Shown: piece after piece, positions 51,310-54,300 of the stretch
Numbering within the stretch: position 1 is the first letter of the stretch
Layout: each line of letters begins with the position of its first letter
Assembly: GCF_013167455.1 (NCBI RefSeq)
Contig: NZ_CP038328.1
DNA from: Escherichia coli O157:H7
GTDB taxonomy: Bacteria; Pseudomonadota; Gammaproteobacteria; Enterobacterales; Enterobacteriaceae
DNA: 64,000 nucleotides
Strand: one strand, 5' to 3'
Position numbers: made by a program

Positions 51310-54300
51310 AGTCGTGCACCGACGCCTGATGCGACGCGGGCGCGTCATATCACGCCAAAACCGTAGGCCGCCTCCGCCATGTTAAATGTTAACTGGCATT
51401 GGCAATTTACTCTTCCCGGCCTTTACTCATACTTTTTTGGTCTTCATCCGGATAGTGTTTTTTTAGATATTCCAGGACGTTTTTATTGACCTTGTGTTGC
51501 GTATACACCCACCCTTTCCAGTAATCAGGCTGGTCCAGGTAAACTTCTGGCGGAATGGTGAAATCAGAAAGCGTTAACCATTCGGCTAACAGATCGGGGT
51601 TTCGTTTCTGTATCAACTGCAACAGCATAATCAGCGACATGGCAGAGGCAGGAGCCGTACTATCGCCGCTTAAATACTTCCACACTGTCGACCGGTTCGA
51701 ACGAAAAAGGATCGGTAGCAATGCCCGGTCCAGATTCATTTCATTAAAAATCTTCTCAAATTCATTCATTTAAATTTTCCTGCCTGGCGTAAACCTCTTA
51801 AAAATTGAGATTTATCAAAGAAACGCATTTTAGCACACATCAGGAACCGCTTCACGTTTAGTCCAGAAACAGAATTTATTTCGCTTATCAAAACAAGTCT
51901 TTACTCTTTTTTACATTGAAAGAGCACGAAATGATTTCCTTTTTTATTTATATAAGAAACCATTTTTGTTTCTTATTGATGGTGTTTACGCTTACAACAG
52001 ACAAAAATGCGCTTTACATCACACAAATGGCGGCGTAGATTTCGATTAAATTGCAACGCAGTTTATTTCTTAAAACAATATTATTTGTTTCTTATAGAAA
52101 CATTAGTACGACTTATTTTGAACAAGAGAAAATGAATGAAAACTGTAAACGTAGCTTTACTGGCACTCATAATTTCAGCAACATCCAGCCCTGTTGTTTT
52201 AGCTGGTGATACCATTGAAGCGGCGGCAACAGAGCTTTCAGCCATTAACTCTGGCATGTCGCAATCGGAGATTGAGCAGAAGATTACCCGCTTTTTAGAA
52301 CGCACAGACAACAGCCCCGCTGCGTATACCTATTTGACTGAACATCACTACATCCCTTCTGAAACACCTGATACCACTCAGACTCCCACTGTCCAGACAG
52401 ATCCTGACGCAGGACAAAAAACCGTTGCCGCTACAGGTGATGTACAGACAACTGCCCGTTATCAGAGCATGATCAACGCCCGACAGTCTGCGGTAACTGA
52501 CGCCCAGCAAACGCAAATTACAGAGCAACAGGCGCAGATCGTAGCCACACAAAAAACGCTCGCCGCGACTGGAGATACGCAAAATACCGCGCATTATCAG
52601 GAAATGATTAATGCCAGACTGGCGGCTCAAAATGAGGCTAATCAGCGCACCGCCACTGAACAAGGGCAGAAAATGAATGCGCTGACAACCGATGTGGCAG
52701 TACAACAGCAAAATGAAAGGACTCAATACGATAAACAAATGCAAAGTCTGGCGCAGGAGTCTGCCCAGGCACATGAACAAATTGACAGCCTGTCACAAGA
52801 CGTAACCCAAACGCACCAACAGTTAACCAACACCCAAAAACGGGTTGCAGATAACAGCCAGCAAATTAACACGCTCAATAACCATTTCAGTTCGCTAAAA
52901 AACGAAGTTGATGACAATCGTAAAGAAGCCAATGCGGGAACTGCATCTGCCATCGCTATCGCCTCACAACCACAGGTTAAAACCGGTGACGTGATGATGG
53001 TGTCAGCGGGAGCGGGAACCTTCAACGGTGAATCTGCGGTGTCTGTCGGAACATCATTTAATGCCGGAACGCATACGGTACTTAAAGCCGGTATTTCTGC
53101 GGATACACAATCTGATTTCGGCGCAGGTGTCGGCGTGGGATATTCGTTCTAATATTTCAATCCTCAATATAAATAAGAGCAAGGAAGCTTGCCGGGTTCA
53201 CCTCTTCATTAATTTGTACATTATTTAAGGTTAACAATGATGAATAGCTCCATTAAATCGTTTTCCCTGCTGGCGGTTATATTACTGGCTGGCTGTAGTT
53301 CACCCACTTCCCGCATCGCAGATTGCCAGGCGCAGGGCGTCAGTCATGACACCTGTTACCTCGCAGAACAGCAGCGTCAGGCGGCTATTTTAAGTGCATC
53401 CGAGGCACAGGCATTTAAAAATGCAGAAGCCGCACAACACGCCCAGGCGGCAAAGAAAGCCATTTATAAAGGATTTGGCATGACCTTTAGAATGAGCAGT
53501 AAAAACTTTGCTTATCTCAATGATTCATTATGTGCAATTGATGAAGACAATAAAGATGCCACTGTTTATCAGTCAGGTCTATATAACGTCATTGTTTATC
53601 ATCACACAGGAAAAGTCGCCTTAATGAAAGAAGGCCAGTTTGTGGGTTATTTAAAATGAAGGAGCAAAGGAAAATACCCCTGACGCATATTATGATTATC
53701 GGTGCGTTTATTTTTGCCTTCTTGCAAGTAGTATTATTAGCCTCCCTGGTTCACGCTGTGAATGTTAACAACGAAATCCAGGAAGGCTTATTTCAGTCGG
53801 GGCGCATTATGGTAGAAAGTTTGCAGCATATTCTTTCGGTGCAAACGGGGATTCACTGATTTTCACCCCGCCCGATGATGACAGCAGCCGGAGAGATTTT
53901 CGATAATCGGGCAGTCGGCGCTGTCATCACCGGGGCAGGCATTCGCCAGCGCCAGTAGCTGGTTGCGCATAGATTGCAGTTCTTCGATATGCCGTTCAAT
54001 CTCCGCCACCTTCTCCAGCGTGCGACGTTTGACGTCGGCACTGTGACGCTGCGGGTCGTTAAACAGATTCACCAGCTCGCCGCTCTCTTCCAGGTTAAAG
54101 CCCACCTGGCGCGCCTGGCGCAGTAAGGTCAATTCGTTGAGATGCTGCTGCGTGTAGGTTCGATAACCATTTTCGCTGCGCATCGGCGGCGTCACCAGCC
54201 CCTTCTCTTCATAGAAGCGAATGGCTTTGCTGGTCAGGCCGGTAATTTTTGCTACATCGCTAATGTTCATCGTTCGCGCAACGCCTCCTGTGCTTTGTTA

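What the first reader, a model, noticed from the sequence alone, without database searches (positions are those of the whole stretch)
51362..53860. AT-rich accessory module between ybbJ and cueR: minimal YadA-anchor adhesin-like protein, lipoprotein and micro-membrane protein
From memory, ybbJ and cueR are adjacent in K-12. Here ~2.5 kb of markedly AT-rich DNA sits between them. It encodes a 338-aa secreted protein with a repeat-containing coiled-coil-like stalk and a YadA-type C-terminal anchor but no recognisable head domain, then (after 84 bp) a 140-aa lipoprotein (lipobox LLAGC) and a 67-aa single-TM protein with an ATGA overlap. A 120-aa protein of unknown family is transcribed divergently. 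The three-gene layout with a dedicated lipoprotein resembles adhesin/helper-lipoprotein pairs, but I do not recognise these proteins as any named system.
Basis: partly seen in the sequence, partly recalled or inferred. Interest (0 to 1): 0.75.

Follow-up and report, generated by a model that had tools for sequence, protein, structure and literature searches.

The report
Headless trimeric autotransporter cassette (OI-29)
The DNA between ybbJ and cueR is O-island 29 of E. coli O157:H7, a four-gene cassette built around a short outer-membrane fibre protein, and that protein is the one published as the cytoplasmic transcription factor "GmrA", a role its sequence does not support.

Summary
All four ORFs are at the stated coordinates, and K-12 has ybbJ abutting cueR. 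The window is E. coli O157:H7 and the segment is O-island 29 (z0640, z0639, z0638).

- **338-aa protein.** It has a signal peptide, a heptad coiled-coil stalk and a full-length YadA anchor (Pfam E=2.6e-11). No head domain is detectable. It is a short "headless" trimeric autotransporter.
- **140-aa lipoprotein.** It has a helix plus an eight-stranded beta domain and no detectable homology to SadB or TpgA. It lies directly downstream of an autotransporter in 13 of 23 species genomes.
- **History.** The cassette occupies the same site in E. marmotae and E. ruysiae. It is probably ancestral and was lost in K-12-like strains. It is present in 1,404 of 5,426 complete E. coli genomes.

The locus is already catalogued. 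The new points are the conflict over function and the conserved cassette.

The parts
51229..53862 (.). O-island 29 (OI-29): everything between the ybbJ stop codon and the cueR stop codon. Absent from K-12.
   Evidence: The published deletion arms for OI-29 map to 51181-51219 and 53863-53900. K-12 has 0 bp between ybbJ and cueR. The region is 100% identical to O157:H7 chromosomes.
51279..51356 (+). REP/BIME-type repeat at the left edge of the island.
   Evidence: Rfam naRNA4 (RF02564), 74.7 bits against a gathering score of 59.5. There is an inverted repeat GCCGGATAAGGCGT/ACGCCGCATCCGGC. This short stretch causes the tens of thousands of extra BLAST places.
51407..51769 (-). z0640 (IHP3), 120 aa. 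XRE/Cro/CI-type helix-turn-helix protein and the probable local regulator of the divergent operon.
51770..52135 (.). Divergent regulatory region, 30.9% GC. It contains a conserved sigma-70-like promoter at 52013-52041 (TTTACA-17-TAGATT). It also contains two GAAAC/GTTTC palindromes, at 51954-51974 and 52087-52101, which are candidate operators.
   Evidence: Promoter scan. The promoter block is invariant across Escherichia and Pseudocitrobacter. GAAAC/GTTTC occurs 6 times against 0.72 expected, and 1 of 2000 shuffles reaches that count. The operator role is inferred, not tested.
52136..53152 (+). z0639 (published as gmrA, probably ihp1), 338 aa. Headless trimeric autotransporter. Signal peptide at residues 1-23 (52136-52204). 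Small N-terminal domain and a Pro/Thr linker up to about residue 95. Coiled-coil stalk from about residue 96 to 262, including two 45-aa repeats (52403-52672). YadA anchor at residues 279-338 (52970-53149).
   Evidence: Pfam YadA_anchor E=2.6e-11, full model length. PDB anchors of AtaA, Hia and YadA. Hydrophobic period is 3.5 in residues 180-262 and 2.0 in residues 279-338, and the protein ends in Phe. The mature protein has no Cys or Trp and pI 4.7. The published gmrA primers map onto this ORF.
53237..53659 (+). z0638 (IHP2), 140 aa. Lipoprotein with lipobox LLAG|C and Ser at +2. It has a conserved Cys30/Cys40 pair, an Ala/Gln-rich helix and a C-terminal eight-stranded beta domain.
53656..53859 (+). 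67-aa single-pass membrane protein. It is predicted to have its N-terminus in the cytoplasm and about 34 residues in the periplasm. It is translationally coupled to the lipoprotein gene by an ATGA overlap.
   Evidence: ORF. Hydrophobic segment IIGAFIFAFLQVVLLASLV, Kyte-Doolittle 2.65. The same overlap and protein occur in other Escherichia species and in Pseudocitrobacter. It is annotated by PGAP. Topology is inferred from the positive-inside rule.

Best explanation
The segment is O-island 29, a four-gene cassette.

**Shown.** The central gene, z0639, encodes a short trimeric (type Vc) autotransporter. It has a Sec signal peptide, a small N-terminal domain, a coiled-coil stalk that varies in length between strains, and a C-terminal YadA-type anchor.

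**Inferred from what is known of this family.** After export through Sec, three chains are assembled by the BAM complex into a 12-stranded outer-membrane barrel. The stalk passes through the barrel to form a surface fibre roughly 25 nm long.

**Shown.** The same ORF is the published 'GmrA'.

**Inferred.** Its reported direct binding to the fliA promoter is most likely an artefact of mislocalised tagged precursor. Any real effect on motility would be indirect.

**Shown at fold level, function inferred.** The divergent gene z0640 encodes an XRE-type HTH protein. It probably controls the operon through the GAAAC palindromes flanking a conserved promoter.

**Inferred, about 40% likely.** The downstream lipoprotein and its translationally coupled 67-aa inner-membrane partner are periplasmic accessory factors for biogenesis or anchoring of the fibre. 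They would be analogous to SadB but not homologous to it.

**Supported by synteny.** The cassette is old in Escherichia and has been lost repeatedly, for example in K-12.
For: Identity and naming:
- 100% match to O157:H7 chromosomes.
- The OI-29, gmrA, z0638 and z0640 primers from PMC5826968 Table S2 map exactly. The deletion arms lie at 52097-52135 and 53153-53190. The cloning primer encodes MKTVNVAL and the FLAG primer ends at GVGYSF.

Autotransporter features:
- Pfam YadA_anchor 1-60/60, E=2.6e-11.
- PDB AtaA, Hia and YadA anchors.
- Signal-peptide-like N-terminus, no Cys or Trp, pI 4.7.
- Heptad periodicity in the stalk and period-2 periodicity in the anchor.
- PGAP and UniRef both call it a YadA family adhesin.

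Behaviour typical of a surface protein:
- Alleles of 325-345, 456-480, 497, 530, 577-579 and 717 aa differ by copies of a roughly 123-aa unit.
- The anchor is 89-99% identical between alleles, against 52-60% for the N-terminus.

HTH neighbour.

Cassette conservation:
- Same site in E. marmotae and E. ruysiae.
- Other sites in Pseudocitrobacter, Enterobacter, Rahnella, Yersinia and Ewingella.

K-12 also keeps a 98-bp HlyD remnant from the adjacent island, which is consistent with deletions in this region.
Against: - PMC5826968 reports specific EMSA shifts with competition. It also reports 7.75-fold ChIP enrichment at PfliA and loss and rescue of motility in several pathotypes. I cannot explain those data away by computation.
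- Trimerisation and surface exposure were not modelled or measured here.
- Deleting OI-29 did not reduce adherence to HeLa or Caco-2 cells, so no adhesive function is known.
- The lipoprotein is solitary in 9 of 23 species-level loci. It has no similarity to known TAA helpers.
- The 67-aa protein was found only in Escherichia and Pseudocitrobacter.
Confidence: 0.8

Rival explanations
1. [not shown]
For: EMSA with specific competition. ChIP-qPCR enrichment of 7.75-fold at PfliA but not at PflhDC or rpoS. Deletion and complementation phenotypes in EHEC, EPEC, APEC and NMEC strains, and epistasis with fliA (PMC5826968). The model is repeated in later papers and reviews.
Against: - The protein has a signal peptide and a full YadA anchor.
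- No significant DNA-binding family is found. The only DNA-related hits are coiled-coil noise: SMC at 22 bits against a cutoff of 567, and TMF_DNA_bd at E=0.16.
- It is acidic, pI 4.7 with net charge about -15.
- The EMSA protein carried an N-terminal His tag placed before the signal peptide. The ChIP protein carried 3xFLAG fused after the C-terminal Phe. By inference, both would prevent normal export or assembly.
- The paper never mentions a signal peptide, the outer membrane or an autotransporter.
- Length-variable repeats and a conserved anchor fit a surface fibre, not a regulator.
Confidence: 0.07
2. The autotransporter is real, and its effect on motility is also real but indirect. The presence or absence of the fibre, or of its periplasmic intermediates, alters envelope signalling such as Rcs, Cpx or sigma-E, or surface sensing, and this changes fliA transcription.
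For: The motility phenotype was reproduced in several strains and was complemented by a fragment carrying only the intergenic region plus this ORF. flhDC transcript levels were unchanged. It is established that envelope-stress pathways control flagellar genes; the link to this case is inference.
Against: No data connect this protein to any envelope pathway. From general knowledge, adhesin expression usually lowers motility rather than raising it. The complementing plasmid also carries the AT-rich regulatory DNA, which could titrate nucleoid proteins; that is my inference.
Confidence: 0.35
3. The lipoprotein and the 67-aa protein are independent envelope proteins, for example a lysozyme-inhibitor-like or other protective lipoprotein. 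They merely travel with the autotransporter gene and have no role in its biogenesis.
For: Nine of 23 full-length homologues have no autotransporter next to them, and L007 has none either. The best fold matches are small eight-stranded barrels of the PliC/MliC/ACP type and FAIM. Deleting z0638 gave no motility phenotype. A short 63-69-aa lipoprotein family sharing only the N-terminal module exists in Aeromonas, Pseudomonas and Buttiauxella.
Confidence: 0.4
4. The cassette in O157:H7 is a decaying remnant with no current function.
For: The O157 allele is the shortest and lacks the roughly 123-aa unit present in 1-3 copies elsewhere. There is no adherence phenotype. Expression in DMEM is modest and drops on HeLa contact (Table S3). 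The neighbouring giant adhesin gene is a pseudogene.
Against: All four ORFs are intact and nearly invariant in clusters of 568-1187 sequences. The anchor is 89-99% conserved across species. The promoter block is invariant. Transcripts are detected.
Confidence: 0.05

Closest known systems
Trimeric autotransporter adhesins (type Vc secretion): YadA, Hia, AtaA, and in E. coli UpaG/EhaG, Saa and the Eib proteins
   Same: Signal peptide, coiled-coil stalk and a C-terminal YadA-type anchor contributing four strands per chain. Length polymorphism arises from stalk repeats. PHROG 'adhesin' and 'tail protein' families match residues 94-338 with E=1e-22. I take these to be prophage-borne relatives such as Eib, but did not check.
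   Different: No YadA head, neck or stalk Pfam domain in any allele. The protein is very short at 338 aa. No adhesive or other surface phenotype is known, and deleting OI-29 leaves adherence to HeLa and Caco-2 cells unchanged.
SadA/SadB of Salmonella (a trimeric autotransporter plus a dedicated trimeric lipoprotein; PMC3953254)
   Same: An enterobacterial TAA sits in an operon with a small lipoprotein built as lipid anchor, then helix, then beta domain. K-12 lacks both genes through a clean deletion.
TpgA of Acinetobacter (partner of AtaA, with BamE-like and OmpA-like domains)
   Same: A periplasm-facing protein encoded next to a TAA gene.
   Different: No BamE/SmpA_OmlA or OmpA domain by Pfam, and the predicted fold is different.
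XRE/Cro/CI-type HTH regulators (Aca1, Aca2, HigA, MqsA C-terminal domain, lambda cI)
   Different: No significant sequence-family match. The family is tiny, with 23 representative clusters among 1.84 billion proteins. It has an extra C-terminal helical half of about 50 residues.
'GmrA' as published (PMC5826968)
   Same: It is the same ORF, base for base, apart from one mismatch in a 39-nt primer arm.
   Different: The published function, a cytoplasmic DNA-binding activator, is not supported by any sequence feature. The sequence indicates an exported outer-membrane protein.

Membership tests
Trimeric autotransporter (type Vc, YadA-anchor family) | C-terminal YadA-like membrane anchor domain | tested here: met
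   Pfam PF03895 at residues 279-338, model 1-60/60, E=2.6e-11. phmmer hits to the AtaA, Hia and YadA anchors.
Trimeric autotransporter (type Vc, YadA-anchor family) | N-terminal Sec signal peptide | tested here: met
   Hydrophobic core at residues 6-24 (Kyte-Doolittle 2.05) and a VLA|GD cleavage motif. The signal peptide is conserved in all alleles. This is a rule-based check; no dedicated predictor was available.
Trimeric autotransporter (type Vc, YadA-anchor family) | Coiled-coil segment leading into four amphipathic beta strands, ending in an aromatic residue | tested here: met
   Hydrophobic period 3.5 in residues 180-262 (1.3% of shuffles reach it). Period 2.0 in residues 279-338 (2.7% of shuffles). 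C-terminal sequence ...GVGYSF.
Trimeric autotransporter (type Vc, YadA-anchor family) | Homotrimer forming a 12-stranded barrel, with the passenger exposed on the surface | not testable with these tools
This needs AlphaFold-Multimer, fractionation and protease shaving.
Trimeric autotransporter (type Vc, YadA-anchor family) | Adhesive head domain (YadA_head, Hep_Hag or similar); typical of the family but not obligatory | tested here: not met
   No head, neck or stalk Pfam family in the 338-aa or the 717-aa allele. No PDB match for the passenger.
DNA-binding transcription factor (the published GmrA assignment) | A recognisable DNA-binding domain | tested here: not met
   Pfam and NCBIfam give only coiled-coil noise: SMC_prok_B at 22 bits against a cutoff of 567, and TMF_DNA_bd at E=0.16.
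DNA-binding transcription factor (the published GmrA assignment) | Cytoplasmic location | tested here: not met
   A signal peptide plus an outer-membrane anchor predict export. Actual localisation was not measured.
DNA-binding transcription factor (the published GmrA assignment) | Sequence-specific DNA binding | not testable with these tools
   Reported by EMSA and ChIP with tagged constructs. It needs repeating with native or mature protein.
SadB-type TAA export lipoprotein | Homology to SadB/YajI | tested here: not met
   [not shown]
SadB-type TAA export lipoprotein | Encoded in an operon with a TAA gene | tested here: met
   It lies 84 bp downstream on the same strand. The same arrangement occurs in 13 of 23 species-level loci, or 14 counting one at 1.9 kb. 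The order is opposite to sadB-sadA.
SadB-type TAA export lipoprotein | Lipid anchor, then trimeric coiled coil, then beta-sandwich domain, retained in the inner membrane | tested here: inconclusive
   The model has helix 37-70 at low confidence plus an eight-stranded beta domain at pLDDT about 90. The oligomeric state is unknown. Ser at +2 suggests outer-membrane sorting, which is an inference from the +2 rule.
SadB-type TAA export lipoprotein | Improves surface display or integrity of its TAA | not testable with these tools
   [not shown]
TpgA-type TAA partner | BamE-like (SmpA_OmlA) and/or OmpA peptidoglycan-binding domain | tested here: not met
   [not shown]
MliC/PliC lysozyme inhibitors | MliC family sequence signature and eight-stranded barrel | tested here: inconclusive
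   [not shown]
[not shown]
   [not shown]
[not shown]
   Only MqsA_antitoxin at E=0.12 in Pfam. Nothing in NCBIfam, PHROGs or PDB sequence profiles.

The most novel reading that the evidence does not exclude
Probability: 0.15. Interest if true: 0.7.

Novelty: new member of a known kind. Interest (0 to 1): 0.45.

Why it matters
**A published function that the sequence contradicts.** A protein cited in EHEC papers and reviews up to 2024 as an island-encoded transcription factor is, by every sequence criterion, an exported outer-membrane fibre. The protein with a DNA-binding fold is its unstudied neighbour. If the direct-binding model is wrong, the regulatory diagrams for EHEC motility need correcting, and the phenotype needs a different explanation.

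**A possible new partner family for autotransporters.** The conserved pairing of headless autotransporters with this lipoprotein family is a concrete, testable candidate for a new autotransporter partner.

**Origin of the island.** The synteny data argue that OI-29 is ancestral to Escherichia and was lost repeatedly. The published view is that it was gained four times by pathogens. This bears on its use as a pathogen-associated marker, for example the ihp1 PCR target for O145:H28.

Tried and rejected
- **TpgA-like domains.** Absent.
- **MliC/PliC membership.** Fold-level resemblance only, with no Pfam hit.
- **Phage spanin or other phage origin for the lipoprotein and micro-protein pair.** No PHROG hit, and the gene order and sizes do not fit.
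- **TraV similarity.** E about 1e-3, below cutoff, and driven by the lipobox and Cys region.
- **Structured RNA in the regulatory region.** Only the REP-derived naRNA4 at the island edge was found.
- **A terminator between the autotransporter and lipoprotein genes.** No plus-strand site.
- **The ihp1 primers and probe as I recalled them.** No match in the O157 window at up to 3 mismatches. Either they are allele-specific or my recollection is wrong. The O145:H28 region I fetched to check was the wrong part of the chromosome, and I did not pursue it.
- **My first anchor HMM.** It missed divergent anchors in L021, L022 and L005. A second HMM built from those cross-hits bona fide YadA anchors, although Pfam scores L022 only at E=0.9. 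Those three count as probable autotransporters, not proven ones.
- **The three-sequence HMM for the 67-aa protein.** It finds only close relatives, so its apparent restriction to Escherichia and Pseudocitrobacter may be a sensitivity limit.
- **Literature search.** I found no paper linking GmrA with an autotransporter.
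Full report
**What is there.**
- 51407-51769 (-), 120 aa.
- 52136-53152 (+), 338 aa.
- 53237-53659 (+), 140 aa, with lipobox LLAGC.
- 53656-53859 (+), 67 aa, overlapping the previous stop by ATGA.

The gap between the 338-aa and 140-aa genes is 84 bp. The flanking genes are qmcA-ybbJ on the left and cueR on the right. 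The region is 100% identical to E. coli O157:H7 chromosomes. RefSeq annotates the genes there as hypothetical protein, YadA family autotransporter adhesin, lipoprotein and hypothetical protein. In a K-12 derivative the ybbJ stop codon abuts the cueR stop codon with nothing between them.

The "markedly AT-rich" description is only partly right. The island is 44.5% GC against 52.6% for the window. The 338-aa gene is 48.6% GC. Only the 366-bp divergent intergenic region is strongly AT-rich, at 30.9%.

**It is a named island.** A text search found Yang et al. 2018 (PMC5826968). That paper describes O-island 29 of EDL933 as a 2,643-bp island containing z0638, z0639 (gmrA) and z0640. I mapped the primers from its Table S2 onto the window.
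- The OI-29 deletion arms lie at 51181-51219 and 53863-53900.
- The gmrA deletion arms lie at 52097-52135 and 53153-53190, immediately flanking the 338-aa ORF.
- The gmrA cloning primer reads ATGAAAACTGTAAACGTAGCTTTA, which encodes MKTVNVAL.
- The 3xFLAG primer ends on the codons for GVGYSF.

So z0639/GmrA is the 338-aa protein, z0638 is the lipoprotein and z0640 is the 120-aa protein. UniRef names the last two IHP2 and IHP3. The ihp1 PCR target used for O145:H28 was developed from an "O-island 29 homologue". By elimination ihp1 is probably the 338-aa gene, but I did not verify that.

**The 338-aa protein is a trimeric autotransporter by sequence.**
- Pfam matches the YadA anchor over its full model length at residues 279-338, E=2.6e-11. 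Every other hit is non-significant coiled-coil noise.
- phmmer against PDB sequences finds the coiled coil plus anchor of AtaA (1.3e-7), Hia (5.7e-6) and YadA.
- The N-terminus has a signal-peptide-like hydrophobic core and a VLA|GD cleavage motif.
- The mature protein has no Cys or Trp, is rich in Ala, Thr and Gln, and contains a 45-aa internal repeat.
- Hydrophobic periodicity is 3.5 residues in 180-262 and 2.0 in 279-338. The chain ends in Phe.
- No head, neck or stalk family is detected, even in a 717-aa allele, so "headless" is fair.
- Across Escherichia the protein occurs as alleles of 325-345, 456-480, 497, 530, 577-579 and 717 aa. These differ by 0-3 copies of a roughly 123-aa unit.
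- The anchor is 89-99% identical between alleles, against 52-60% for the N-terminal part and 61-73% for the stalk. That gradient is what one expects of a surface-exposed fibre.

Every database name for it is "adhesin" or "YadA family". The EAEC 042 genome paper lists Ec042-0536 as a trimeric autotransporter of unknown function. From its position next to the same type I secretion locus, that is probably the orthologue. I did not confirm this by sequence.

**Conflict with the published function.** PMC5826968 reports several results:
- GmrA has a "putative DNA-binding domain".
- It shifts the fliA promoter in EMSA.
- It is enriched 7.75-fold at PfliA in ChIP-qPCR.
- Its deletion lowers motility in several pathotypes.

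The paper never mentions a signal peptide, the outer membrane or an autotransporter. Later papers and reviews repeat the assignment. I found no paper connecting GmrA with an autotransporter.

The sequence gives no support for DNA binding. No DNA-binding family reaches significance. The nearest are SMC at 22 bits against a curated cutoff of 567, and the coiled-coil "TMF_DNA_bd" at E=0.16. The latter may be the source of the domain claim, but that is my inference. The protein is acidic, pI 4.7.

The constructs are also a concern. The EMSA protein had an N-terminal His tag ahead of the signal peptide and was purified from soluble extract. The ChIP protein had 3xFLAG fused after the terminal Phe. 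By inference, both would keep the protein from being exported or assembled normally.

I therefore rate direct transcription-factor activity as unlikely, about 7%. The motility phenotype may still be real and indirect. Computation cannot settle this.

In one genome per species, 23 loci carry a full-length homologue.
- In 13 loci a TAA-type ORF ends within about 350 bp upstream. In one further locus the gap is 1.9 kb.
- Nine loci are solitary.
- Two of the 13 have divergent anchors. My second HMM links these to bona fide YadA anchors, but Pfam scores one of them only at E=0.9.

A short 63-69-aa lipoprotein family in Buttiauxella, Aeromonas and Pseudomonas shares only the N-terminal module. The 67-aa protein has one hydrophobic segment with a positively charged N-terminus. 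It keeps the ATGA coupling in other Escherichia species and in Pseudocitrobacter.

A helper role is therefore plausible but unproven. I put it at about 40%.

A January 2026 preprint searched for TAA helpers by neighbourhood and found only SadB and TpgA. It used only TAAs that carry a YadA head, which would exclude this family.

**History of the locus.** E. marmotae and E. ruysiae have the same four genes between ybbJ and cueR. In both they are followed by the same type I secretion genes and an intact giant BapA-like adhesin of about 7,000 aa. In O157 that giant gene is a pseudogene. K-12 keeps only a 98-bp remnant of the HlyD-family gene. This points to an ancestral arrangement with later deletions. 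The 2018 paper instead proposed four independent gains.

In Pseudocitrobacter the cassette lies on the other side of qmcA-ybbJ. In Serratia silvae an HTH-plus-lipoprotein pair sits there.

Among 5,426 complete E. coli genomes:
- 1,404 carry at least 80% of the module.
- 966 carry an unrelated segment of about 0.8 kb with a hypothetical, sometimes frameshifted, gene.
- The rest are presumably empty like K-12. I did not count them directly.

**Verdict.** The locus is already catalogued as OI-29, gmrA and ihp, and the autotransporter is annotated as such. As a discovery it is a new, uncharacterised member of a known kind.

Three things this analysis adds are worth a specialist's attention:
- The protein published as a transcription factor is by sequence an exported outer-membrane fibre, and its neighbour is the one with a DNA-binding fold.
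- The HTH, headless-TAA, lipoprotein and micro-protein cassette recurs across Enterobacterales.
- The island looks ancestral rather than recently acquired.

No function for the fibre is known. Deleting OI-29 does not affect adherence to HeLa or Caco-2 cells.

Noticed in passing
window 54267-57601 and beyond (also L001 9068-14801): Downstream of cueR lie a HlyD-family adaptor and an ABC permease/ATPase of a type I secretion system, then a giant BapA/SiiE-like adhesin gene that is a pseudogene in O157. The giant gene is intact (7,222 and 6,711 aa) in E. marmotae and E. ruysiae. K-12 and strain S4 keep only a 98-bp remnant of the adaptor gene.
   Followed up: partly
window 51279-51356 (weaker copy at 51189-51255): A REP/BIME repeat at the left edge of the island scores above the Rfam gathering threshold for naRNA4. 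It accounts for the roughly 157,000 extra BLAST places.
   Followed up: partly
L003 3100-3833 (E. coli strain S4), same ybbJ|cueR site: There is a third state of this locus. An unrelated GC-rich segment of about 0.8 kb, with a hypothetical (here frameshifted) gene, is present in 966 of 5,426 complete genomes. It has no NCBIfam match.
   Followed up: partly
window 51196-51228 compared with L004 2968-3000: The last 30 or so bases of ybbJ differ sharply between O157 and K-12. The encoded C-termini are ...LIIRAVIA and ...LHIRAVSS. The 3' end of cueR is only about 91% identical. The boundary of the presence/absence polymorphism therefore lies inside the flanking genes.
   Followed up: no
window 51220-51228: The published OI-29 deletion arms also remove the last two codons and the stop codon of ybbJ. 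The OI-29 deletion mutant therefore has an altered YbbJ C-terminus. This does not apply to the gmrA single mutant.
   Followed up: no
window 52136-53152 / OI-29: The ihp1 real-time PCR target for EHEC O145:H28 derives from an 'O-island 29 homologue' (Perelle 2003, cited in PMC4441469). UniRef names the z0638 and z0640 orthologues IHP2 and IHP3. ihp1 is therefore probably the autotransporter gene. The primers as I recalled them do not match the O157 allele.
   Followed up: partly
[not shown]
   Followed up: partly
[not shown]
   Followed up: no
L005 3766-5532, L021 2813-4387, L022 4104-5966: These are long coiled-coil proteins ending in a divergent anchor-like C-terminus (...GVGLSGDF...SLSVGW), just upstream of the lipoprotein homologue. 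Pfam does not recognise the anchor (E=0.9), but an HMM built from them hits bona fide YadA anchors. L005 has two autotransporter-like genes in tandem.
   Followed up: partly
L026: A contig labelled Chryseobacterium sp. 18061 carries a lipoprotein locus nearly the same as that of Enterobacter sp. JUb54 (L024). This suggests a mislabelled or contaminated assembly.
   Followed up: no
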